DNA of 64,000 nt. Origin: a virus. Its lineage: Duplodnaviria > Heunggongvirae > Uroviricota > Caudoviricetes. The stretch's first letter is position 1, and every line of letters begins with the position of its first letter. The stretch lies in the IMG/VR virus record IMGVR_UViG_2541047873_000001. One strand, 5' to 3'. The notes under the pieces are model-generated. The model did no database searches. It was not told where the DNA came from and saw only the letters and a program-made list of their open reading frames with translations. Both the position numbers and the translations under genes were made by a program. Positions 1,158-44,699 of the stretch are shown in pieces.

Positions 1158-1234
1158 GATGGTGTAGCTCAGTAGGATAGAGCAGCAGCCTTCTAAGCTG
1201 TCGGTCGGTGGTTCGAATCCACCCACCATCGCCA
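1158..1234 (+). tRNA. tRNA-Arg (anticodon TCT)
   Basis: Cloverleaf by eye: 7 bp acceptor gatggtg/caccatc, D-arm gctc..gagc, anticodon loop cttctaa, T-arm ggtgg-ttcgaat-ccacc, encoded CCA. Confidence 0.8.
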
Positions 1235-1239
1235 ATTTA

Positions 1240-1326
1240 GGGGAGTTAGTCCGTAGGGGTAGCGGGGTAGACTGTAAATCTACTGTCATTGCGACTCGGA
1301 TGGTTCGACTCCATCACTCCCCACCA
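1240..1326 (+). tRNA. tRNA-Tyr (anticodon GTA), type II
   Basis: Acceptor ggggagt/actcccc, anticodon stem gtaga/tctac with loop ctgtaaa, long variable arm, T-loop ttcgact, encoded CCA. Confidence 0.75.
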
Positions 1327-1330
1327 AATT

Positions 1331-1406
1331 GCCGGTTTAGCTCAGTTGGTAGAGCGCCTGCCTTGTAAGCAGGATGTCAGCGGTTCGAGTCCGTTAACCG
1401 GCACCA
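1331..1406 (+). tRNA. tRNA-Thr (anticodon TGT)
   Basis: Acceptor gccggtt/aaccggc, D-arm gctcagttggtagagc, anticodon stem cctgc/gcagg with loop cttgtaa, T-loop ttcgagt, encoded CCA. Confidence 0.8.
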
Positions 1407-1414
1407 ACACAACA

Positions 1415-1488
1415 GGTAAGGGTATTTTGCGACGTCGGAGATCGCCGAGCTTGGCAGAGGGTTCGAATCCCTACGAAGTACCCTTACC
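1415..1488 (+). ncRNA. tRNA-like element (degenerate tRNA or structured small RNA)
   Basis: Perfect 10 bp closing helix ggtaagggta/tacccttacc enclosing a D-arm-like hairpin (gcga..tcgc) and a canonical T-arm (aggg-ttcgaat-ccct), but no anticodon arm can be fitted. Confidence 0.3.
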
Positions 1489-1594
1489 GTTGTGATGAAT
1501 GCACAGGCTGATGTGCCGCAACTACAGTAGTGCGCGCTTTGCGGGGCTTGCTACAACCCTGTGTCGGAGTTCAGCACCGACCATCACAATCACT

Positions 1595-1681
1595 GGAGAG
1601 TAGGGAGCATGGTGCTCAAGCGGTCTTGAAAACCGTCCCATTGCGCAAGCGATGATGGTTCGATTCCATTACTCTCCGCCA
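1595..1681 (+). tRNA. tRNA-Ser (anticodon TGA), type II
   Basis: Acceptor ggagagt/actctcc, anticodon loop cttgaaa, long variable arm, T-arm atgg-ttcgatt-ccat, encoded CCA. Confidence 0.75.
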
Positions 1682-2110
1682 GCGCAACGTTAAGAGTATT
1701 TGGCTAATTAAGCGAATGCCGGAAGCAGAACCGGATCACCAAATGCGTACAGGCGTCATCGCCGCCCAGTCAGCCAAATGCTCTTACCATTGCGGTGAAT
1801 GCGGCTAAGCGCACGCGGAACAGTTAAAACAGTAAAGGTGGTCTTTTTACTGGCGTAACGAGAATCCATAAGTGATCCGGCGTTAATTGTTAACTGGTTA
1901 ACGTCACCGGGAGGCACCCGGCACCGCAACCTAACAGCAATGGCGTTTTGTCTTAAAAGGTGGCTGCAAGTGATGGATTTTTGGGCGTTTGCCGATAAAA
2001 ACCCGGAGTGGACATTATTGTTTCTGCTGGTGGTTGCATACGGGGTAGAGCAAGCGGCAAAAGCCTTACGCGGTTCTGGCAAAAAGCGTAAGCGTAATTA
2101 ACAGTAATCT

Positions 2111-2186
2111 GGCCCTTTAGCTCAGTGGTTAGAGCGGGCGACTCATAATCGCACGGTCACCGGTTCAAGTCCGGTAGGGGCCACCA
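2111..2186 (+). tRNA. tRNA with CAT anticodon, most likely tRNA-Ile2 (lysidine type) rather than Met
   Basis: Acceptor ggccctt/aggggcc, D-arm gctcagtggttagagc, anticodon loop ctcataa, T-loop ttcaagt; body closely resembles E. coli ileX-type tRNA; P1 also encodes a tRNA-Ile. Confidence 0.7.
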
Positions 2187-4094: not shown

Positions 4095-5455
4095 CGTTAA
4101 TTAACTGGGAAGCGCATCGAGCTAAGTTCCTGGAGTTAAGAGAAGAAACCGGGATCACCATAAAAGAATATTGCGAGCAGCATGACCTCAGCTTTAACAC
4201 CGCCAGAAAGCATCTCAATATGAAAAAAAATGAGGTTAAGGCGAAAGCTAAGGCTGCCGGGAAAAGTACAAAACAGCGCGCAAAAAGCAGCGCCACCGGC
4301 TCAAAAAAAGAGCAAAAAAAGGCTGATAAAAGCACAGAATTTACAAAAACTGACAAATCGTTAGCTGGTGGACGGTTCCGCGCCATGCCGCAAAAACAAA
4401 ATGCGGATCACAAAGAAAAGCCAAGTAATAACAACAAGATACACAAGGATGTGAAGGGATCATTTTGTGATGAAATGGGAGAAATGATCCCTAAAAGCAG
4501 CGAAAAAGCCCAACGAAACAAGGGATCATTGCAAATGATCCCTGACTCATCAGCTCAAAGCGCCACTTTGCCTGCCACCAACGTCGCCCGTGAGATGATG
4601 AAGAACGGCGCGACTGAACATTTACGACTTGCGATACAGATGGCGCAGGAACGAGCAATTCAGTATCAGGCCATCGTTGACCAGGAAGCGGAGCGACTAC
4701 AGGAAGAGATTGACGCCCTCGGCGATACACAGCCAGAGGGGATGCACCCAGGGCAGCGTCTTCTCGGCCTAATAAGCGATGCGGCCTACTACATGAATGA
4801 CTTTATCAGTAGGTTGGCAGCCATCTACCAGACCGAGCAGAAGCTACGCCAGGGGGATGAAAAACTTGCGCAGGGCGCGCGTCAGCAGGCATTCAGGGAG
4901 GCTGAGGCCAGAGAAAAACTGGCGATTGCCCGCCTGCAAGCCGAGCAGCGTGGCAAAGAGATTGAGTATCGCATTGGCGCTGACGCACGCGCCGCCAGGG
5001 TTATCGCCGCCGCTATACGTATGCGTGAGCGCGAGGAGCTGGACGATATAGGCGTAGCTGAATATATCGAGCGGCAGGGCGTCAGTGTCCCGGCTATCCT
5101 GGCGGCACGAGCGGCAAAAGCGATCTCACTTCTGGAGCCTCCGGTTTCTGACGTTAACGATGTTGATGATGAGCAACTGGATAAAGAGGCGAAGCAGTTT
5201 GCCGAGCAACAAGCTGGACTCCCACAATGGCTTGCACAACGCCGGGCTGAAGTAGCGAAAATCGTTGATAGGCTTGGGATGGGGGATTACGACCGGAACG
5301 GAGAACGTAAAGCCGGTGAATTTGAGGCCAATGATGAAGACCTGAATATAGACCCTTCCGCCACGGCTGATATCTACGGTGATTATGACGCGGGGGATAC
5401 CGGTTTTGATGCTGTAGATGACGAGATTGCGATAGACCAGCCGGAGGATGACTAA
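4091..5455 (+). CDS. pacA: terminase pac-recognition subunit PacA-like
   Basis: 454 aa; N-terminal HTH-like segment, long charged coiled-coil middle; stop overlaps the large terminase start (TAATG); contains the GATC cluster. Confidence 0.6.
   Translation: MTLINWEAHRAKFLELREETGITIKEYCEQHDLSFNTARKHLNMKKNEVKAKAKAAGKSTKQRAKSSATGSKKEQKKADKSTEFTKTDKSLAGGRFRAMPQKQNADHKEKPSNNNKIHKDVKGSFCDEMGEMIPKSSEKAQRNKGSLQMIPDSSAQSATLPATNVAREMMKNGATEHLRLAIQMAQERAIQYQAIVDQEAERLQEEIDALGDTQPEGMHPGQRLLGLISDAAYYMNDFISRLAAIYQTEQKLRQGDEKLAQGARQQAFREAEAREKLAIARLQAEQRGKEIEYRIGADARAARVIAAAIRMREREELDDIGVAEYIERQGVSVPAILAARAAKAISLLEPPVSDVNDVDDEQLDKEAKQFAEQQAGLPQWLAQRRAEVAKIVDRLGMGDYDRNGERKAGEFEANDEDLNIDPSATADIYGDYDAGDTGFDAVDDEIAIDQPEDD
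4403..4546. other. candidate pac site (Dam-methylatable hexamer cluster)
   Basis: Five GATC-containing hexamers (GGATCA / TGATCC) in both orientations within about 140 bp inside pacA, including two copies each of gggatcatt and aatgatccc; P1 pac has clustered TGATCA/G hexamers within pacA. Confidence 0.5.
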
Positions 5456-6963
5456 TGGCTGGTGGTCGTAAGATTAAGTGCGTCACCAGTGATCCACGTT
5501 GGCGCGATATGGTTATCAGGTATCGATACAACTTTACCCAGGCGGTTGTCGATATTTTTGGGATGTTACCCTCCCACCAGCAGCAGCAGATCATTCAGTC
5601 AGTGCAGGAGACGGGGAGCAGGACGACCGTTACGTCCGGACACGGAACGGGTAAGTCGTCCCTTACCGCGATGTTGCTACTAATTTTCATGATCCTGTTC
5701 CCCGACGCCCGCGTCATTATTGTTGCGAACAAAATAGGCCAGGTAAAAACAGGCGTATTCAAATACGTGAAACAGTTTTGGGCGAATGCTGTTAAGCGTC
5801 ACGGCTGGTTACAGACCTATTTTGTCCTGTCTGACACCATGTTTTATGAGCGTTCCCGTAAAGGGATATGGGAAGTGCTCTGTAAAGGTTATCGACTCGG
5901 TAACGAAGAGGCACTGGCGGGGGAGCACGCTGAGCATTTACTGCTAATCCTTGATGAAGCATCGGGCATATCCGATAAGGCGATTAACGTCATGACGGGG
6001 GCGTTAACGCAGAAAGATAACCGTATGCTCATGCTTTCCCAGCCTACGCGTCCAAGCGGTTACTTTTATGAATCTCACCATTCAAGGGCAAAGGCAGAAG
6101 GCAATCCGGAAGGTGTCTGGACGGCAATAGTCCTTAACTCTGAAGAATCACCATTCGTTGAACCGAGCTTTATTCGTGAGAAATTGCTGGAGTACGGCGG
6201 CAGGGATTCGCTGGAGTACATGGTTAAGGTGCTGGGCCAGTTCCCGCGTGCAATTAACGGGTATTTGCTTGGTCGTGATGAGTGCGACCGCGCCGCACGG
6301 CGTAAAGTGTTGCTGGAGAAAGATTGGGGCTGGGTAGCGACCGCTGACGTCGGTAATGGTCGCGACAAATCGGTGCTCAATATATGCAAAGTATCCGGTT
6401 ATCGTGAGAAACGACGCGTTGTGAACTTTAAGATACTGGAGATGCCAGGCACTATGGACCCGTTGGCTTTTGCCGACTTTATCTATAACGAATGCACTCC
6501 TGATAAATACCCGAACATCACCATTGCTGTGGATGCTGATGGCTTTGGTTCAGATACGTGTGCGCAGCTTGTCCGCCGTGGTGCTAATCCCGTTCGCATC
6601 CGTTGGGGTAAGCCTATGTTTGCGCTAAGAGACAGAGAACGCTTTGTCAATCAGCGTGCTTACGCCAATATTATGGCAGGGGATGCCATTAAATCAGGGC
6701 GTATGCGTATCGATAGTGACCCCAAAACCGCAGATCAGGCATCAAAAATCCCGTATATGCTTAACGAAGAAGGGAAGGTAGCGATGATGCGCAAGGAGCA
6801 CATGCGGCAGAAGTTAAACATCAAGTCGCCGGACAGATGGGATACCTACTGCTTCACTATGCTGGTGGATTACGTGCCTGCTAATGAAGACATTGGCGCA
6901 GAACTCGCAACATTCCGCGATCAGGTGTTGGCAGAAGTGGATATTCCTGATATTGACATTTAA
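5455..6963 (+). CDS. pacB: terminase large subunit PacB-like
   Basis: 502 aa; Walker A-like GHGTGKS and downstream LLILDEASG (Walker B-like) ATPase motifs; follows pacA with 1-nt overlap. Confidence 0.75.
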   Translation: MAGGRKIKCVTSDPRWRDMVIRYRYNFTQAVVDIFGMLPSHQQQQIIQSVQETGSRTTVTSGHGTGKSSLTAMLLLIFMILFPDARVIIVANKIGQVKTGVFKYVKQFWANAVKRHGWLQTYFVLSDTMFYERSRKGIWEVLCKGYRLGNEEALAGEHAEHLLLILDEASGISDKAINVMTGALTQKDNRMLMLSQPTRPSGYFYESHHSRAKAEGNPEGVWTAIVLNSEESPFVEPSFIREKLLEYGGRDSLEYMVKVLGQFPRAINGYLLGRDECDRAARRKVLLEKDWGWVATADVGNGRDKSVLNICKVSGYREKRRVVNFKILEMPGTMDPLAFADFIYNECTPDKYPNITIAVDADGFGSDTCAQLVRRGANPVRIRWGKPMFALRDRERFVNQRAYANIMAGDAIKSGRMRIDSDPKTADQASKIPYMLNEEGKVAMMRKEHMRQKLNIKSPDRWDTYCFTMLVDYVPANEDIGAELATFRDQVLAEVDIPDIDI

Positions 6964-24987: not shown

Positions 24988-25592
24988 TTTTCTAACATTT
25001 TAAGTTGAATTATGAGATCCACCGTTGTACATTCACAACCGATTGGTACACCGGTCAACTTTTTGAGACAAACCGTTTGGTTTTTCGTATGATTGCCGCC
25101 GCCATACCAATGGCGGTGCAATATAGGTGGCTGAAAAGCCCCCGTTGACTCACGGTGTTCCAGCCTTTATTGCGCCGCCACCAGACCGTGGAACAGTCGA
25201 TGGCGGCTCCGAAAGCAAGGAGTCACTACACTATGAACAGCTACTGTCTTTTCCCATCACTCGTTGTCCGCCACTCACGCGATAATCTGCATTCTTTACT
25301 CGCGCTGGGGGTGTCAAAATGACCGTTCGCTACCTCAACTTTCAAATCCAGAACATCACTGGCGGTTGCTATGACTGGTTTGTCACTCTCGGAAAAGAAG
25401 TGATCACCGGGAAGCTGGATGAAGTGAAAGCTAAAGCAATGGCCTACGCCTGCAAGCAAGCCCAAAAGAAGAAAAGAAAAGCATAAGAAAACACACAGTT
25501 GCGCCCTGGCATTATCGTGGGGTATATTTCTACGGCACCTTAGAAAAACGGGTGCCGGGATTGGAACCCCGGATAATGCAAAAGGCGACACA

Positions 25593-25616
25593 GACGCCGA
25601 AAGCGTCTTTTTTTGT
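25593..25616 (+). terminator. rho-independent terminator
   Basis: gacgc-cgaaa-gcgtc hairpin followed by T7. Confidence 0.7.
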
Positions 25617-25639
25617 GTCATGCCATCGCACAGCCATGC

Positions 25640-25790
25640 GTAGCGTTTAGCTCAGAGATCAATGGTAGTGCTGGCTGGGCTGCCGAAAGGCAGGCCGGTT
25701 CCCTTTTGCGCCGGTAGTTCCAACCCAGTCAGTGCTACCGCCATTGAGATTGGAACCTCACGCGGTAGCTCCTTAAATTAGCAAAAGGAG
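25640..25790 (+). ncRNA. c4-like structured regulatory RNA candidate
   Basis: No ORF; 16 bp stem (25664-25679 with 25724-25739) enclosing hairpins; repeated GGTAG/CTACC elements complementary to the region just ahead of the downstream RBS; position matches P1 c4. Confidence 0.35.
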
Positions 25791-25799
25791 GCTGCCAAT

Positions 25800-26015
25800 A
25801 TGGCTACTATCCCTACCCCAACTCATTCTGAATTTATCTGGCGTTTCTATTCCTGCCAAAAACACCTCTATATCTGCGTAATGGCTGCTACCGAAGCAGA
25901 GGCGCGCTCATACCTTCCCGAAGAACCCTGTATTTTTGCTGCTCGCTTCACTCTTGATGCGATGGAGATCCTCAATTACTGGAATCTGCCGATGAACTGC
26001 GTGGAGGTGCACTGA
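25800..26015 (+). CDS. small protein in Icd position
   Basis: 71 aa ORF with strong RBS (aaaggagg) overlapping the antirepressor start, as icd overlaps ant in P1; no sequence-level call. Confidence 0.3.
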   Translation: MATIPTPTHSEFIWRFYSCQKHLYICVMAATEAEARSYLPEEPCIFAARFTLDAMEILNYWNLPMNCVEVH

Positions 26016-26956
26016 TGAATCTGTCCATCTCTCAAAAAGCGACAATGACCAGCATTGAGATCGCGGAACTGGTGGGAAGTCGTCACTCTGATGTTAAACG
26101 CAGCATCGAAAGACTTGTTGCTAAAGGAGTTATCCAACATACGCCATTGGCTACAGTTGAGAATAATCAATCACTTAGCCCTAATAAATACACAAAAGCC
26201 TATTTCTTCGAAGGCGAACAAGGCAAGCGCGATAGTATTATCGTCGTCGCGCAGCTCTCTCCGGAATTCACCGCCCGGCTGGTGGACCGCTGGCGCGAAC
26301 TGGAGAATGTCAGGGGACCGTTAAAATCAAAAGCCGAAATCCTGGCTGAAATGGCGCAAATGCATCTTGAGCATGAACGCAGGATCAACGCCGTAAATGC
26401 CCAGGTAGCCGAGGTATCGGCACAAGTGTCCAGGGTCACCGAAACACTTGAGCAGATCAAGAAAGGCAATATTCCAGAAGGCTACATTGGCTATCGCCAG
26501 TTGGCGGCAAAATGCGGCCTGACTGAAGCCAAATGCCGCAACCTGGTCAACGCTTACCGGATACCCACTGATACGCATGAGTTTTTAACTCCCGACGGTT
26601 TGCTTGCGCGACGCTCCATTGTGGCCCTGGCCCCCTTCCGGAAAGCCTTTAAGCAGGTTATGTCGGAGGCAGAACCACGTAACAAACGCTGGTATCATCC
26701 CAGGATGGGGCTATTTCAGGCCATTCACCATCCTGTGCCTGAAAGTCCAAAGGCAAACCTGTCGTTGCATACCGCCAGAGAGAAGATTAAAACAGGGTAT
26801 GCAACCGTATGCCGTCGAGCATCCTGGCCTGAAAGTGTCTGGGTATGGCCCGAAAGAGGCTCACGGAAAAACTGGCGCACCATTCGCGACGGCAAGATCT
26901 GTGCGATTGATTTACAGCCAGAAGATGTAGCAGCGACCGACTGGATTGTTAGTTAA
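26015..26956 (+). CDS. antirepressor, Rha-family N-terminal domain
   Basis: 313 aa; N-terminal MTSIEIAELVGSRHSDVKRSIERL typical of Rha-type phage regulatory proteins; hairpin terminator at about 26964-26986. Confidence 0.65.
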   Translation: MNLSISQKATMTSIEIAELVGSRHSDVKRSIERLVAKGVIQHTPLATVENNQSLSPNKYTKAYFFEGEQGKRDSIIVVAQLSPEFTARLVDRWRELENVRGPLKSKAEILAEMAQMHLEHERRINAVNAQVAEVSAQVSRVTETLEQIKKGNIPEGYIGYRQLAAKCGLTEAKCRNLVNAYRIPTDTHEFLTPDGLLARRSIVALAPFRKAFKQVMSEAEPRNKRWYHPRMGLFQAIHHPVPESPKANLSLHTAREKIKTGYATVCRRASWPESVWVWPERGSRKNWRTIRDGKICAIDLQPEDVAATDWIVS

Positions 26957-27012
26957 TAGATTTGCCCCGGTCATGCCGGGGCTTTAACTACTAAGTGACC
27001 GGACACAGCAAA

Positions 27013-27333
27013 ATGTATGCCACGAAAAAAATTGATTTCACTTATTCTTCCGCCACAATTGAGCGGCGCTTCACCCTCATTAGAGAGTTGGAACTGTCAA
27101 AAGTCTGGTATCAAATTCTACTGGATGAAGAGTTCTCACTGATGATAATGGCTAAAAAAGAAGCAATGCCGAATGACCGGCATAAAGTCATTGCCAGCCT
27201 TGACCTGGTGACAAACAGATACTGGGAGACAGAGGAACTGCGTGAAGCGGGAGTAATTCGTGACCTGATGGAGAGTTCCGTTCCCCGCCGCTATCGTGCG
27301 GGAAACGAAATCTCCGTGATTAAAGGGGCTTAA
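27013..27333 (+). CDS. hypothetical protein
   Basis: About 106 aa from MYATKK; no recognisable domain. Confidence 0.4.
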   Translation: MYATKKIDFTYSSATIERRFTLIRELELSKVWYQILLDEEFSLMIMAKKEAMPNDRHKVIASLDLVTNRYWETEELREAGVIRDLMESSVPRRYRAGNEISVIKGA

Positions 27334-27809
27334 AGCTCACCAGCACGCTGTTTTTCAAGCGTAGATTTAACATTGGGCGCTTTCCCTTTAAAAGAATGGA
27401 AAGTGCCACATTTTTCTGTTTTAACCTCGCGCAGAGCTTCGCCATCGGCGTTCTGCCATTGATGAGATAACGTCATATCACCGCGAGAAGGAACATCCAG
27501 CGAGTACAACGTGTAAGTTCCCCCCATCTCGGCATACTCCTGGAACACATAGCTCATTACGTCAGATTCAGTTTTCCGGTGCGCGTTATCAACCTTATTC
27601 CCATTCAGAAATATGGCGTTCGGATAGATTTTTATATCAAACCTACCGCACTTTACCTGCAAATTCCCAGCATTAGCAATCAAAGGAAAAAACATTAATG
27701 CCGCTATAGCCAGCTTATTCAAGTTTGATGTCTTTGTTGAAGAAAATGGTTTCTCTTTTTTTATGCGTATCATTTCATTAACTCCAGACATTGTTGTCTT
27801 TTCATCCAA
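27330..27809 (-). CDS. secreted or lipoprotein-like hypothetical protein
   Basis: N-terminal signal peptide (KLAIAALMFFPLIANA). Confidence 0.5.
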   Translation of the reverse strand: MDEKTTMSGVNEMIRIKKEKPFSSTKTSNLNKLAIAALMFFPLIANAGNLQVKCGRFDIKIYPNAIFLNGNKVDNAHRKTESDVMSYVFQEYAEMGGTYTLYSLDVPSRGDMTLSHQWQNADGEALREVKTEKCGTFHSFKGKAPNVKSTLEKQRAGEL

Positions 27810-27816
27810 TTTGAGG

Positions 27817-28446
27817 TTAATTAGTACAATTCATTTTTGCAGCGACTTCGGCTACCCCACGATCAATGTAAGGCTGCTCACTTAATATCTTTTGGATCTC
27901 ACTACGAATGCATTCCGCTGTAGGTTGCTTAGGTGCTTGTTTTTGCTTCGCGGATCGTTCAAGTTCCATCATGTTATTGAATCCTGCCACATCACTTTGC
28001 CGAAGCATCCCTTTCCGGATAAGAAACTGCTGCCCTTCAGGCACCCAAGCCAGCATATACAAAGGCTGCAATAGATCTCCCATTCCTTGCTGACGATAAA
28101 GCTCAAACTGCAACACGCCGTTACTTAACACCGACATTGTGTCTTTGGTGGAATACCCTGTCTTTTGTATGGCTTTGCCTGTTTCATCTGCTGCATATGC
28201 AAATACACAGAACTCAATGTTGCTTTTAAAGAATGGCTCTACAGGTTTCAGCGGGATATTTTCTTTCTGGCAATAGTTTGAAACTTCATCAGGCGTATAG
28301 TTTGTTTTGGCGTTTCGCAACACCTTCAGCCCAGCCTCATACTTTGCAGGTAACGCGCCTGCATAGGCAGCATTAAGAGAAACTCCCCCCAATATAACCG
28401 CGAGCACTGCTCCCAAAACCCTTAACTTCACAAAACCATCCTTCAT
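27817..28446 (-). CDS. secreted hypothetical protein
   Basis: 209 aa from MKDGFVKLRVLGAVLAVILGGVSLNAAYA (signal peptide); track ORF extends further upstream. Confidence 0.5.
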   Translation of the reverse strand: MKDGFVKLRVLGAVLAVILGGVSLNAAYAGALPAKYEAGLKVLRNAKTNYTPDEVSNYCQKENIPLKPVEPFFKSNIEFCVFAYAADETGKAIQKTGYSTKDTMSVLSNGVLQFELYRQQGMGDLLQPLYMLAWVPEGQQFLIRKGMLRQSDVAGFNNMMELERSAKQKQAPKQPTAECIRSEIQKILSEQPYIDRGVAEVAAKMNCTN

Positions 28447-28711
28447 GTAAACAAACTGAAGTTTTATGTTACAAAAACAAACATCTACGCCAAAATGACT
28501 TAGGCCAAATTCAGCGCGAATAAAAAAATCAAAAAAATTGTTGACACTATTCTGGAAATCACAATCTGGACAAAATCCATTGCGCAAACGGCTCCCGTTG
28601 AAGGTTCTTTTGACGACTAACTTTCAGCCGATGCGCGGTAGGGAGTCATAACGCCAAAGCAGGCCGCCATGTGCGGCCTTTTTTTGTGCCTGCTATCGTG
28701 GAGTAAAAGCC

Positions 28712-29365
28712 ATGCAAAAGATCGCAATATTCAGTCTTTCTACTAACAAGCCGCTGATGGCTACGGCAGTCCTGAAAGACGGCGCGCTTGTAATTGACAA
28801 AGTAAAGCCGCTCCCTGCATCTGCTATTGAACAAAAACGAAAAATTCCACCAGCAATTGCCGAGCTGCGTAAAAGTGAATTTAAGGTGCTGGTTGACGAA
28901 ATCACGCCAACCATTTCAGCCGGTACAGGTGCCAGCCAGGTAACATTAAAAACACGGCACGCCGACGGCAGAGCAGCGATCATTGTCGGCATGGAGAGAT
29001 ACCGGGAGCTGAAACTACAAAGGCTGCTATCCCTGCCTGACAAGAACAAAGGGGCATTTGAGATCCCCGACTCTATCGTCGATACCGAATACAACGGCAA
29101 CGGTGAAGAGGTTTATCGAGTTAACTGGCAAGATATCCGACCAGAGCACATCCTGATGATTCTGTGCTGCTATGCAACGGTATACCACAATGTTGCCAGC
29201 GCGGATTACCTGAAACAAATGACAGGAGCGGTAGAGAAAGAAAACAAAGCAGGGATAATGGCCTCGTTCCTGTCCATTATCAGCGATCAAAAAGCTAAAG
29301 CAGGAAATACCCAACCAAAATCGCTGGCCGGGCAAGTAATTGATGAAGATACGGTGATACTTTAA
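28712..29365 (+). CDS. hypothetical protein
   Basis: 217 aa; preceded by TTGACA and TGGAAATCACAA motif. Confidence 0.5.
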   Translation: MQKIAIFSLSTNKPLMATAVLKDGALVIDKVKPLPASAIEQKRKIPPAIAELRKSEFKVLVDEITPTISAGTGASQVTLKTRHADGRAAIIVGMERYRELKLQRLLSLPDKNKGAFEIPDSIVDTEYNGNGEEVYRVNWQDIRPEHILMILCCYATVYHNVASADYLKQMTGAVEKENKAGIMASFLSIISDQKAKAGNTQPKSLAGQVIDEDTVIL

Positions 29366-31248: not shown

Positions 31249-31986
31249 TTACTTGTCCTTTGATGTCGATTGAGACTCATATATTGTCTCTACGTCATCT
31301 ATTAGTTTATTAATACCCCACAATCCAGTGTCTTTATAAAAATCGCTTTCTTCAATTGCTTTTAATAAATCGGCAAAATCTTCTTGGGTGGAAATTCTTT
31401 TCTTTTTTGCTTTATATACATCGACAATTACTTTTATGCCGTGATACAGAGCCAATCTGGCACTCTCAGTCTCTCTCTTCTTCTCTTCAATTGCAGACAA
31501 TAATTTATATTGATCTTCTGTTTGCTTTTCTAGACTTAAAAGCTTGCTCTCTTTTTGCTTCAAGTTGATCTGCAACTCTTTTATTCTTGCCCTCTCTTCT
31601 AAATCAAACTCATAGTCAATGTATCTAATTCTTGCATAGTTCCTGCCTGTTGCTTTTGATATATACATTGTTATATAAGGCATTACCACTGACGCAGTGG
31701 TTCCATATATAAATGGCATAACAAAATGAGCCACAAACGGAGATACAATGATGGGGCCAACATAAGGAAAGTGATATTTCTCACCAACCCATACTATAGA
31801 CAATGTTGTATATATATCGTACTTTGATTTAAATAATATAATAATATCCTGCCAGTTAACGACAAAGAAAGAAACCACAACATATGCAAACAACTTATTG
31901 AATAACTTGTCTCTTATGGCTTCTTCTATTGTGTTCCTGACTGTGACATTTTCATCTTTATTTTCTAATGATGAATCTTTGCTCAT
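31249..31986 (-). CDS. AT-rich membrane-anchored coiled-coil protein
   Basis: About 245 aa; roughly 33 percent GC versus about 50 percent flanks; hydrophobic helices in residues 30-110 then long coiled coil; immediately downstream of higA on the same strand. Confidence 0.6.
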   Translation of the reverse strand: MSKDSSLENKDENVTVRNTIEEAIRDKLFNKLFAYVVVSFFVVNWQDIIILFKSKYDIYTTLSIVWVGEKYHFPYVGPIIVSPFVAHFVMPFIYGTTASVVMPYITMYISKATGRNYARIRYIDYEFDLEERARIKELQINLKQKESKLLSLEKQTEDQYKLLSAIEEKKRETESARLALYHGIKVIVDVYKAKKKRISTQEDFADLLKAIEESDFYKDTGLWGINKLIDDVETIYESQSTSKDK

Positions 31987-32047
31987 ATAAAAATTCAAAC
32001 CTTCTTATCTTTATTTTTGGTGAAGGCGGTCTTCCAGACCGCCAAAC

Positions 32048-42615: not shown

Positions 42616-42686
42616 CCACACCATTTAAGCCCATAAATGGTTACAAATTGGTACACATATCACACCAACAAAAAAATCTGAAGAGG

Positions 42687-43145
42687 ATGGTTTTGAAAAA
42701 GATAATTTTGATAGTAGTTGCGCTTTTAGCCATTTATGGAATTTACCGTACTACGGCGGCAGTTATCGATCACATCAGGTATATCCGTTCCCTGGAAGAC
42801 TCAAAATCACAACTTGAAAGCGAGAACAACACGCTTTCTACCGCATTGCAGTTAAGTGAAAAGTCGCGATCTGCCATGATGGCTGAAAACGAAAGAATTA
42901 AAACACTGGAGAAGGAGTACCAGCGCAAAACAGCAGAACTGAATACCAGCCTGATCAAACAACGGGAGGAAAGCCAGAATGAAATCAATCGTCTTGAAAC
43001 TGCGTTACGCAATGCCGGGGTTAATGATGTGCGTGTGCCTGATGACGTTATCAGGATGCAGCGGGAACGGGCAAAAGAAATCAATCAGCGTGCCAATGCA
43101 AATTACCGTAGAAGCCACCAGCAAACCGCAGGGAAATCTGATTGA
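42687..43145 (+). CDS. i-spanin (Rz-like)
   Basis: N-terminal transmembrane helix then coiled-coil periplasmic domain; start chosen at MVLKK after RBS. Confidence 0.6.
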   Translation: MVLKKIILIVVALLAIYGIYRTTAAVIDHIRYIRSLEDSKSQLESENNTLSTALQLSEKSRSAMMAENERIKTLEKEYQRKTAELNTSLIKQREESQNEINRLETALRNAGVNDVRVPDDVIRMQRERAKEINQRANANYRRSHQQTAGKSD

Positions 43146-43302
43146 TTATACCCCTTGCATAGTGCCAGAGGACACGCCTGTGCTGTTAAACAAGTATCCG
43201 GCATACACTGAACAGTTATTCAGCACTATCGATGAATGCAACCGACGAAACGCACTGAATAACCAAAGGAATAGGGAGATTTGGGAAGGGAAGGGGGGTT
43301 AA
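42979..43302 (+). CDS. o-spanin (Rz1-like lipoprotein), overlapped architecture
   Basis: Signal peptide with lipobox LSGC; begins in an alternate frame inside the i-spanin gene and extends beyond it. Confidence 0.6.
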   Translation: MKSIVLKLRYAMPGLMMCVCLMTLSGCSGNGQKKSISVPMQITVEATSKPQGNLIDYTPCIVPEDTPVLLNKYPAYTEQLFSTIDECNRRNALNNQRNREIWEGKGG

Positions 43303-43485: not shown

Positions 43486-43812
43486 ATGACTAAAAATACT
43501 CGTTTTTCCCCCGAAGTCCGTCAACGGGCAGTCCGTATGGTTCTGGAAAGTCAGAGCGAATATGACTCACAATGGGCGACAATTTGTTCCATTGCTCCAA
43601 AGATTGGCTGTACGCCGGAGACTCTGCGTGTCTGGGTTCGCCAGCATGAGCGGGATACCGGGGGCGGTGATGGAGGGCTCACCACCGCTGAACGTCAGCG
43701 TCTGAAAGAGCTGGAACGTGAAAATCGTGAACTGCGCCGCAGTAACGATATCCTTCGCCAGGCTTCCGCTTATTTTGCGAAGGCGGAGTTCGACCGCCTC
43801 TGGAAAAAATGA
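43486..43812 (+). CDS. IS629 transposase OrfA
   Basis: 108 aa HTH/leucine-zipper protein, recognised as IS629 OrfA by eye. Confidence 0.9.
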
Positions 43813-44699
43813 TGCCACTGCTGGATAAGCTGCGTGAGCAGTACGGGGTCGGACCGCTATGCAGCGAACTGCATATTGCCCCGTCAACGTATTACCACTG
43901 TCAGCAACAGCGACATCATCCGGATAAACGCAGTGCCCGTGCGCAGCGCGATGACTGGCTGAAGAAAGAGATACAGCGCGTATACGATGAAAATCACAAG
44001 GTATACGGTGTGCGTAAAGTCTGGCGTCAGTTGTTACGGGAAGGTATCAGAGTGGCCAGATGCACTGTGGCACGTCTCATGGCGGTTATGGGACTTGCCG
44101 GTGTTCTCCGGGGTAAAAAGGTCCGTACGACCATCAGCCGGAAAGCCGTTGCCGCAGGCGACCGCGTAAACCGTCAGTTCGTGGCAGAACGACCTGACCA
44201 GCTGTGGGTGGCTGATTTTACTTACGTCAGCACATGGCGGGGCTTCGTCTATGTGGCGTTCATCATTGATGTGTTTGCCGGATACATCGTGGGGTGGCGG
44301 GTCTCATCGTCCATGGAAACGACATTCGTGCTGGATGCACTGGAGCAGGCGTTATGGGCCCGTCGACCGTCCGGCACGGTCCATCACAGTGATAAAGGTT
44401 CTCAGTATGTATCGCTGGCCTACACACAGCGGCTTAAGGAAGCCGGATTACTGGCATCAACAGGAAGTACAGGCGACTCGTATGACAACGCGATGGCGGA
44501 GAGCATCAATGGTCTTTACAAAGCGGAGGTAATACACCGTAAGAGCTGGAAAAACCGTGCAGAAGTGGAACTGGCCACACTCACGTGGGTGGACTGGTAT
44601 AACAATCGACGATTGCTGGAAAGGCTGGGCCATACTCCTCCGGCAGAAGCAGAAAAAGCTTATTATGCTTCCATCGGAAACGATGATCTGGCAGCCTGA
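43809..44699 (+). CDS. IS629 transposase OrfB (DDE catalytic domain)
   Basis: 296 aa in the -1 frame relative to orfA, overlap at the A-rich aaaaaatg region consistent with programmed frameshifting. Confidence 0.9.

What the first reader, a model, noticed from the sequence alone, without database searches (positions are those of the whole stretch)
27330..28587. Two adjacent secreted or periplasmic proteins on the opposite strand next to the immunity region
Two consecutive minus-strand genes each begin with a clear signal peptide and have no recognisable domains. In P1 the immI neighbourhood carries the sim superimmunity genes, whose product is periplasmic. These may be superinfection-exclusion factors acting at the envelope.
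Basis: partly seen in the sequence, partly recalled or inferred. Interest (0 to 1): 0.45.

Follow-up and report, generated by a model that had tools for sequence, protein, structure and literature searches.

The report
Secreted protein pair in phage-plasmid sim slot
Two neighbouring genes of a D6/P1-type phage-plasmid encode secreted envelope proteins of unknown fold that work as a pair and travel with relatives of the P1 'superimmunity' gene simB. They are therefore most likely a new version of a system that stops related phages from injecting their DNA, although this has not been tested.

Summary
Two same-strand genes, orfB (27817-28431) and orfA (27330-27773), each start with a Sec-type signal peptide, have no known domain, and lie 1.6 kb from the C4 RNA/icd/ant immunity region of a D6-like E. 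coli phage-plasmid.

Neither is homologous to P1 SimA, SimB or SimC. The Sim idea still gains indirect comparative support:
- In phage D6 the same slot holds a SimB-like gene.
- In four other contexts an orfB-family gene sits next to a SimB homologue, in three of them beside icd or mat of a P1/D6-type element.
- In Enterobacter plasmids and one metagenome contig, orfB and orfA are fused into one protein, so they act together.
- Between near-identical flanks, orfA is 100% conserved while orfB is only 60-79% identical and mosaic.

D6 is a named phage and lacks both genes, so they look dispensable. orfB (all-alpha) matches no solved or viral structure. orfA is a small beta protein with only generic fold matches.

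Best reading (about 0.5): a two-part periplasmic superinfection-exclusion cassette of the sim type, a new variant of a known kind. Function is inferred, not shown.

The parts
27817..28431 (-). orfB: 204-aa precursor, about 180-aa (20 kDa) mature all-alpha secreted protein. It is the hypervariable partner.
   Evidence: ORF. GTG start with AAGGA at 28439-28443. PHROG 12786, E 1e-117. AlphaFold pLDDT 80.7, ten helices in the mature part plus one in the signal peptide. Family invariants: two Cys, G-Y-S-x-x-D-T, P123, G133, D147.
28360..28431 (-). orfB signal peptide (24 aa, predicted cleavage AYA|G)
   Evidence: Sequence. Architecture conserved across the family. pLDDT below 50 for the N-terminus.
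27330..27773 (-). orfA: 147-aa precursor, 112-aa (12.6 kDa) mature all-beta secreted protein. It is the conserved partner.
   Evidence: ORF. ATG with GGAG at 27782-27785. PHROG 13864, E 5e-88. AlphaFold shows nine strands, with block-mean pLDDT mostly above 90 in the mature part (81-96). Two conserved Cys.
27669..27773 (-). orfA signal peptide (35 aa with a long charged N-region, or 18 aa from TTG 27722). Predicted cleavage ANA|G.
   Evidence: The leader is 42% identical to the leader of the D6 SimB-like orf79 although the mature parts are unrelated.
28466..28493 (-). Candidate sigma-70 promoter of the orfB-orfA operon (TTGGCG, 16 nt, TAACAT). Weak, 8 of 12 matches.
   Evidence: The position of TTG and TAACAT is conserved in five aligned relatives, and the distant L004 has TAATAT there. 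It falls below the threshold of the consensus scan, which found no site. This is an inference.
27519..27524 (-). G6 run inside orfA at which several database copies are frameshifted
   Evidence: (P0012, P0013, P0015).
26995..27333 (+). pmgF-like gene. It converges on orfA and its 3' end overlaps orfA by 4 bp. This is the left border of the variable slot.
   Evidence: 78% identical to D6 orf81 and 41% to P1 PmgF.
28712..29365 (+). mat (maturation control) gene, divergent from orfB. This is the right border of the slot.
   Evidence: 85% identical to D6 Mat. D6 annotation.
28575..28690 (+). Highly conserved non-coding block between orfB and mat, ending in a plus-strand intrinsic terminator (28661-28679)
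   Evidence: No Rfam match.
25535..26956 (+). immI-type immunity region: isrK-like RNA, C4 antisense RNA, icd and Rha-type antirepressor
   Evidence: Rfam C4 76.7 bits and isrK 62.5 bits. Phage_pRha and PHROG 63 'anti-repressor Ant'. Icd named in related records.

Best explanation
orfB and orfA form a two-gene operon of a D6-like phage-plasmid. It encodes two Sec-exported, disulfide-bonded periplasmic proteins that act together. orfA is a conserved small beta-protein. orfB is a fast-diverging all-alpha protein of unassigned fold.

The operon is one allele of a recombining 'sim-type' cassette slot that lies beside the C4/icd/ant immunity region of P1/D6-type phage-plasmids. I infer that it is expressed from the prophage. 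I also infer that the pair intercepts an incoming related phage in the periplasm, after adsorption and before DNA reaches the cytoplasm, as P1 Sim does. In this model orfB determines which phages are excluded.

Shown here: export signals, operon and fusion linkage, linkage to SimB, accessory status, hypervariability of orfB.

Inferred: expression in lysogeny, the exclusion function, and its target.
For: 1. Export. Signal peptides with small-x-small cleavage sites are conserved across divergent homologues, and cysteine pairs are conserved.

2. Partnership.
- The genes are 43 nt apart on one strand with no terminator between them.
- The same order, orfB then orfA, occurs in E. coli, E. fergusonii, E. 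marmotae and Salmonella, and as a frameshifted copy on a Vibrio plasmid.
- Natural fusions orfB::orfA exist. P0021 and the Enterobacter p60214CZ_1 protein occupy the same slot, and P0024 is on a metagenome contig.

3. Link to sim.
- D6 has a SimB-like gene in this slot, 52% identical to P1 SimB over 86 aa.
- pF719-4 has orfB followed by that SimB-like gene.
- A Citrobacter P1-like contig has an unknown secreted protein, then an orfB-like gene, then a SimB-like gene, directly upstream of icd.
- Contig L018 has a SimB-like gene followed by an orfB-like gene upstream of icd.
- Contig L009 has a SimB-like gene 2 bp upstream of the fusion.

4. Accessory status and variability.
- Both genes are absent from D6 and from all 50,697 phage records searched.
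- GC is 0.43-0.46, against about 0.50 in the flanks.
- Published work calls simABC a hypervariable region of P1-like plasmids (PMC9603915). [quoted passage not shown] One search shows that these include orfB and orfA.

5. Arms-race signature. Between the window and L002 or L023, mat and mature orfA are 100% identical (dS 0.007-0.09). orfB is only 79% and 60% identical (dN 0.17-0.31, dN/dS about 0.41).
Against: - There is no homology to SimC, by my recollection the only Sim protein with a demonstrated exclusion role, or to SimA or SimB.
- The function of SimB is itself unknown, so linkage to it transfers little mechanism.
- orfB relatives also occur alone on large IS-rich E. coli plasmids near Ail/Lom and an M60 peptidase, and on small Rep3 plasmids. 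That would also fit a host-directed envelope function.
- No strong promoter was found and there is no expression evidence.
- The slot here lies downstream of ant and beside mat. In P1 the sim genes lie upstream of c4.
Confidence: 0.5

Rival explanations
1. Lysogenic-conversion envelope factor for the host. The secreted pair alters envelope physiology, for example sensing or binding a small molecule such as bile, or resistance to host antimicrobials. It would benefit the lysogen without excluding phages.
For: - orfB relatives occur as solitary genes on large IS-rich E. coli plasmids next to Ail/Lom and an SslE-like M60 peptidase, and next to an autotransporter.
- The best, though weak, fold matches of orfA are the bile-sensing periplasmic barrels VtrC and ToxS, which work as obligate heterodimers.
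- The genes are low-GC and on the opposite strand, like a typical moron.
Against: - Repeated linkage to SimB and to the immunity region of phage-plasmids points to phage-phage conflict.
- So does the allele-swapping of orfB between identical flanks.
Confidence: 0.2
2. Orphan periplasmic immunity proteins. The pair would neutralise a periplasm-acting interbacterial toxin, such as a type VI effector, a colicin-like bacteriocin, or a phage or tailocin muralytic enzyme.
For: The proteins are small, secreted, disulfide-bonded, polymorphic and plasmid-borne, with no enzymatic signature. Conceptually this overlaps with exclusion if the neutralised enzyme is a phage tail transglycosylase.
Against: - No toxin or effector gene is adjacent in any of the contexts read.
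- There is no similarity to any known immunity family in Pfam, NCBIfam, PADLOC or the PDB.
Confidence: 0.1
3. Phage morphogenesis or lysis accessory proteins, suggested by the neighbouring pmgF-like, mat, baseplate and tail genes.
For: Position between pmgF-like and mat/26/25.
Against: - The strand is opposite to the late genes.
- Both genes are absent from D6, a named phage, and replaced by unrelated cassettes in relatives.
- No P1-type late-promoter motif lies upstream.
- The proteins have cleavable signal peptides rather than membrane anchors or a lipobox, unlike spanins.
Confidence: 0.07

Closest known systems
P1 sim locus (simA-simB-simC; SimC is the processed periplasmic superimmunity protein)
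   Same: - A cluster of consecutive signal-peptide proteins beside the C4/icd/ant immunity region of a plasmid prophage.
- Accessory and non-essential (PMC10695390).
- A hypervariable region (PMC9603915).
- orfB-family genes sit in operons with SimB homologues.
   Different: - No sequence or profile similarity of orfA or orfB to SimA, SimB or SimC; the PHROG families are different.
- The window has no SimB.
- The slot lies downstream of ant and beside mat, not upstream of c4.
- That SimC acts after adsorption and before DNA entry is my recollection of Kliem & Dreiseikelmann 1989 and Maillou & Dreiseikelmann 1990. I did not read those papers here.
Phage D6 orf79 ('putative superimmunity accessory function', SimB-like plus an extra C-terminal domain)
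   Same: - It occupies the same slot between pmgF-like/orf80 and mat, with the same upstream region (79% identity).
- Its leader peptide is homologous to the orfA leader, and its annotated first 11 codons match the orfB signal peptide.
- In pF719-4 it follows an intact orfB.
   Different: The mature domains are unrelated to orfA and orfB. D6 appears to have lost orfB through a deletion of about 600 bp.
Other phage entry-exclusion proteins: T4 Imm/Sp, T5 Llp, phi80/N15 Cor, HK97 gp15 (recalled from memory)
   Same: They are envelope-located, prophage- or phage-encoded, and block infection at or before DNA entry.
   Different: Those are membrane proteins or lipoproteins. The window alleles have no lipobox and no membrane anchor after the signal peptide. 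No similarity was found to any viral structure model.
VtrA/VtrC and ToxR/ToxS periplasmic heterodimers

Membership tests
P1 SimC (PHROG 14355) | Sequence or profile homology to SimC | tested here: not met
   BLASTP gives no hit. hhalign probability is 0.1% for orfB and 0.4% for orfA. SimC maps to PHROG 14355, while orfB maps to 12786 and orfA to 13864.
P1 SimC (PHROG 14355) | N-terminal cleavable signal peptide (exported protein) | tested here: met
   Judged by sequence features only: charged N-region, hydrophobic core, AYA|G and ANA|G sites, conserved Cys pairs. No SignalP run or experiment.
P1 SimC (PHROG 14355) | Confers exclusion of superinfecting phage after adsorption | not testable with these tools
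   Needs plating and DNA-entry assays.
P1 SimB / D6 orf79 (PHROG 14329 / 13054) | Sequence homology to SimB | tested here: not met
   Only the leader peptide of orfA resembles that of D6 orf79 (42% over 40 aa, E 6e-4). The mature parts are unrelated.
sim-type cassette slot of P1/D6 phage-plasmids (operational definition: signal-peptide genes beside immI, variable between relatives) | Location beside C4/icd/ant and replacement by other secreted-protein cassettes in relatives | tested here: met
   Literature: PMC9603915 and PMC6799933.
sim-type cassette slot of P1/D6 phage-plasmids | Gene-neighbourhood linkage to a bona fide Sim homologue | tested here: met
   orfB-family genes are adjacent to SimB homologues in L006, L009, L018 and L022. 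E-values to P1 SimB are 9e-30, 8e-17, 2e-26 and 3e-24.
PHROG 12786 (orfB) and PHROG 13864 (orfA), both 'unknown function' | Full-length profile match | tested here: met
   E 1.2e-117 and 4.9e-88.
Lipoprotein exclusion factors (Llp/Cor type) | Lipobox with Cys at +1 | tested here: not met
   The window orfB has ...ILGGVS... and orfA has no Cys in the leader. Some orfB alleles read ...MLGCVS..., a possible but non-canonical lipobox.
MliC/PliC/Ivy periplasmic lysozyme inhibitors (a lead from memory for orfA) | Pfam MliC or Ivy match, or a fold match | tested here: not met
Known anti-phage defence systems (PADLOC) | Match to any PADLOC model | tested here: not met
   No families for orfA, orfB or the fusion.

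The most novel reading that the evidence does not exclude
P1/D6-type phage-plasmids carry a modular, recombining system of periplasmic entry-exclusion cassettes. A constant small beta-protein (orfA, or alternatively a SimB-type module) pairs with, or is fused to, a hypervariable all-alpha specificity subunit of a previously undescribed fold (the orfB family, with an invariant disulfide and a G-Y-S-x-x-D-T motif). orfB alleles would define exclusion groups among co-circulating phage-plasmids. This would make the long-unexplained sim phenomenon, and the role of SimB, experimentally tractable.
Probability: 0.3. Interest if true: 0.65.

Novelty: new variant of a known kind. Interest (0 to 1): 0.45.

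Why it matters
Phage-plasmids of the P1/D6 group are common in clinical and animal Enterobacteriaceae, and some P1-like ones carry resistance genes (PMC9603915, PMC5786510). What decides which of them can co-infect or displace each other is largely unknown. As far as I know, the mechanism of P1 Sim has remained unresolved since it was described in the 1980s.

This locus offers several handles on that question:
- a two-component (sometimes fused) secreted module linked to SimB;
- one conserved partner and one hypervariable partner;
- a fold with no known relative.

If it is an exclusion system, orfB alleles would predict cross-exclusion between plasmid prophages. They would also point to the phage component that is vulnerable in the periplasm. 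If it is not, it is still a widespread secreted accessory pair of unknown function. orfB-like sequence was found in 67 of 72,556 plasmids, and DNA similar to the locus in 70 of 5,426 complete E. coli genomes.

Tried and rejected
- **Domain and family searches.** Pfam, NCBIfam, PADLOC and PDB-sequence searches of both proteins and their family profiles found nothing.
- **Phage records.** tblastn of both proteins against 50,697 phage records found nothing, so D6 and P1 lack them.
- **Similarity to Sim proteins.** BLASTP and hhalign against P1 SimA/B/C and D6 orf79 found none beyond the leader peptide.
- **Related loci.** The search for related loci with family alignments failed because there was no sufficiently conserved 7-10 column stretch.
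- **Promoters and operators.** The sigma-70 consensus scan found no promoter. P1 C1-operator and P1 late-promoter motifs were not found near the genes.
- **Signal-peptide heuristic.** My own heuristic was too permissive to serve as a chance control.
- **Conserved block upstream of mat.** It has no Rfam family, its folding z-score is only about -1.5, and there is little covariation.
- **Papers.** The P1 genome paper (PMC523184) is not held.
- **Phase variation at the orfA G6 run.** I could not separate this from homopolymer sequencing errors.

Full report
**What the element is.** The window is part of a D6-like, P1-type phage-plasmid of E. coli.
- The region 27000-29000 matches about 128 plasmids, nearly all non-mobilizable and 80-97 kb. 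Among phages it matches only D6, and only over the mat side.
- Rfam places a C4 antisense RNA at 25658-25745 and an isrK-like RNA at 25535-25613.
- These are followed by icd (25800-26015) and a Rha-type antirepressor (26015-26956).

**The observation.** The two maximal minus-strand ORFs are exactly at the stated coordinates, but the real genes are shorter.
- orfB most likely starts at GTG 28431, with AAGGA 7 nt upstream. Homologues begin MK[LV]R, and the PHROG 12786 profile starts just upstream, at the alternative ATG 28446.
- NCBI's 254-256-aa versions include a probably non-coding AT-rich leader.
- orfA most likely starts at ATG 27773, with GGAG 8 nt upstream, or at TTG 27722.
- Either start gives a classical Sec signal peptide: ...LNAAYA|GALPA for orfB and ...PLIANA|GNLQV for orfA.
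- Nearly all of the 14 diverse orfB-family members keep the same architecture, followed by a conserved mature N-terminus A-L/M-P.
- The mature proteins carry conserved cysteine pairs, four in orfB and two in orfA.
- AlphaFold is unconfident only over the leaders.
- I had no SignalP, and my own heuristic was too permissive to serve as a control. Export is therefore well supported by sequence but not proven.
- No Pfam, NCBIfam, PADLOC or PDB-sequence match exists.

**Structures.**

**Rarity.**
- The word-indexed search of 5.8 billion proteins found 7 clusters for orfB and 9 for orfA.
- An exhaustive profile search of 1.84 billion representatives found 21 orfB relatives.
- orfB-like sequence occurs in 67 of 72,556 plasmids. 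DNA similar to the locus occurs in 70 of 5,426 complete E. coli genomes, and none of these carries the window's orfB allele in full.

**The two proteins belong together.**
- They are 43 nt apart on one strand.
- The order orfB then orfA recurs in E. coli, E. marmotae, E. fergusonii and Salmonella plasmids. It also occurs, with a frameshifted orfA, on a Vibrio parahaemolyticus plasmid.
- Two relatives are natural fusions with an N-terminal orfB-like domain and a C-terminal orfA-like domain.
  - P0021 (277 aa), and its close relative on Enterobacter hormaechei p60214CZ_1, lie in the same slot divergent from mat.
  - P0024 (281 aa) is on a metagenome contig.
  - P0021 matches both PHROGs.
- In the fusions, the C-terminal disulfide hairpin of orfB is replaced by the orfA domain.

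**Link to sim.** P1 carries simC, simB and simA, all with signal peptides, directly beside c4/icd/ant. Neither window protein is homologous to any of them. The neighbourhood evidence is nevertheless consistent.
- D6 has, in this very slot, orf79. This is a SimB-like domain (52% identity to P1 SimB) plus an extra C-terminal domain.
- The annotated start of D6 orf79 is a remnant of the orfB signal peptide, and its leader is homologous to the orfA leader. D6 appears to have lost orfB through a deletion of about 600 bp.
- E. coli pF719-4 has an intact orfB (74% identity) followed by the orf79-type SimB-like gene.
- A Citrobacter freundii P1-like contig has three consecutive signal-peptide genes directly upstream of icd: an unknown 123-aa protein, an orfB-like gene, and a SimB-like gene (42% identity, E 9e-30).
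- Contig L018 has, upstream of icd, a YfjT-like secreted protein, then a SimB-like gene, then an orfB-like gene.
- Contig L009 has a SimB-like gene 2 bp upstream of the orfB::orfA fusion.

Thus orfB-family genes are repeatedly operon partners of SimB. orfA and the SimB-type module appear as alternative second genes behind a shared leader. The slot behaves as a cassette site for secreted proteins.

Published work agrees with this picture. simABC is one of eight hypervariable regions of P1-like plasmids (PMC9603915). [quoted passage not shown] One search shows that these are orfB, orfA and three other genes, including a dCTP deaminase.

**Evolutionary signature.**
- Between the window and two relatives (L002, L023), Mat is 100% identical (dS 0.007-0.06) and mature orfA is 100% identical (dS 0.06-0.09).
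- Over the same comparisons orfB is only 79% and 60% identical (dN 0.17-0.31, dS 0.42-0.76, dN/dS about 0.41, against 0-0.08 for its neighbours).
- The raised dS shows that divergent alleles are being recombined in, including two alternative C-termini.
- Across the whole family, the invariant positions are a cysteine pair, G-Y-S-x-x-D-T, P123, G133 and D147.
- One constant partner plus one mosaic, hypervariable partner is what one expects of a specificity determinant in a conflict.

**Dispensability and regulation.**
- D6, a named phage, lacks both genes. The region has lower GC than its flanks.
- No P1-type late promoter or C1 operator lies nearby.
- The consensus scan found no sigma-70 promoter. 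A weak candidate, TTGGCG-16-TAACAT at 28466-28493, is conserved in position among relatives.
- orfA converges on the icd-ant-pmgF transcription unit with a 4-bp overlap and no terminator between them. The next plus-strand terminator is at 28661-28679.
- Induction of the antirepressor operon could therefore read antisense through the pair. This is an inference.

**Interpretation.**
- I put about 0.5 on a sim-type, two-component periplasmic superinfection-exclusion cassette, with orfB as the specificity subunit.
- The main rival (0.2) is a host-directed envelope factor. It is supported by solitary orfB relatives on IS-rich virulence-type plasmids and on Rep3 plasmids and by the weak VtrC/ToxS resemblance.
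- Orphan immunity against periplasmic toxins (0.1) and a morphogenesis or lysis role (0.07) are less likely.
The comparative link to sim is real and stronger than mere position. However, there is no homology to SimC and no functional test.

**Novelty.** This is a new variant of a known kind: the sim-type slot is known, while these two families, their fusion, their SimB linkage and the hypervariability of orfB are, as far as I could find, undescribed.

Noticed in passing
window 28575-28690 (+), hairpin 28661-28679: A non-coding block of about 110 nt between orfB and mat is almost invariant, even in a relative whose flanks are only 72-75% identical. It ends in a plus-strand intrinsic terminator just before mat. 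It could be a small RNA, or a leader or attenuator of mat. There is no Rfam match, the folding z-score is about -1.5, and there is little covariation.
   Followed up: partly
window 27519-27524 (G6 run in orfA); L013 1807-2885: Several database copies of orfA (P0012, P0013, P0015) are frameshifted at or near this G run. In CP042620 both orfA and orfB are frameshifted, orfB near a Gly-rich (AGGD) stretch. This is either homopolymer sequencing error or slipped-strand on/off switching.
   Followed up: partly
window 25106-25185 (+) and 25535-25613 (+): Besides the C4 RNA there is an isrK-like RNA directly upstream. There is also a second, sub-threshold C4-like element (39.5 bits, gathering score 45) about 470 nt further upstream.
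   Followed up: no
L021 (pSL26_91) 4110-6102: In this Salmonella D6-like plasmid, orfB-orfA are followed by a converging three-gene block: a dCTP deaminase, a 357-aa protein and a 101-aa protein. It looks like an anti-phage defence cassette, so the slot collects conflict genes.
   Followed up: no
L006 5609-5980; L018 4180-4632; L010 4320-4649: Further unrelated signal-peptide proteins (123 aa; 150 aa YfjT-like; 109 aa) sit next to orfB-like genes in other elements. They suggest a larger pool of exchangeable secreted modules.
   Followed up: no
window 31249-31998 (-): A very low-GC (0.36) minus-strand gene encodes a 249-aa protein with hydrophobic segments and a long coiled-coil-like tail. It lies between tail gene 25 and the HigB/HigA-type module in relatives, at the position of D6 orf73. 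It is another candidate accessory or exclusion gene.
   Followed up: no
window 43767-43883 (+): An ALIL pseudoknot (120 bits), the frameshift element of IS3-family transposases, indicates an insertion sequence in the phage-plasmid.
   Followed up: no
window 1158-2183 (+): Four tRNA genes in a cluster.
   Followed up: no
window 42648-43145 (+) and 42979-43302 (+): This is a pair of overlapping ORFs. One has an N-terminal membrane anchor. The other starts inside it in another frame, runs past its end and has a lipobox (…MTLSGC…). They look like an Rz/Rz1-type spanin pair.
   Followed up: no
window 28432-28587 (-): Database annotations (P0001, P0002, P0005; 254-256 aa) extend orfB about 50 codons upstream into what is probably its AT-rich promoter region. 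Homologues and the ribosome-binding site favour the 204-aa form.
   Followed up: yes
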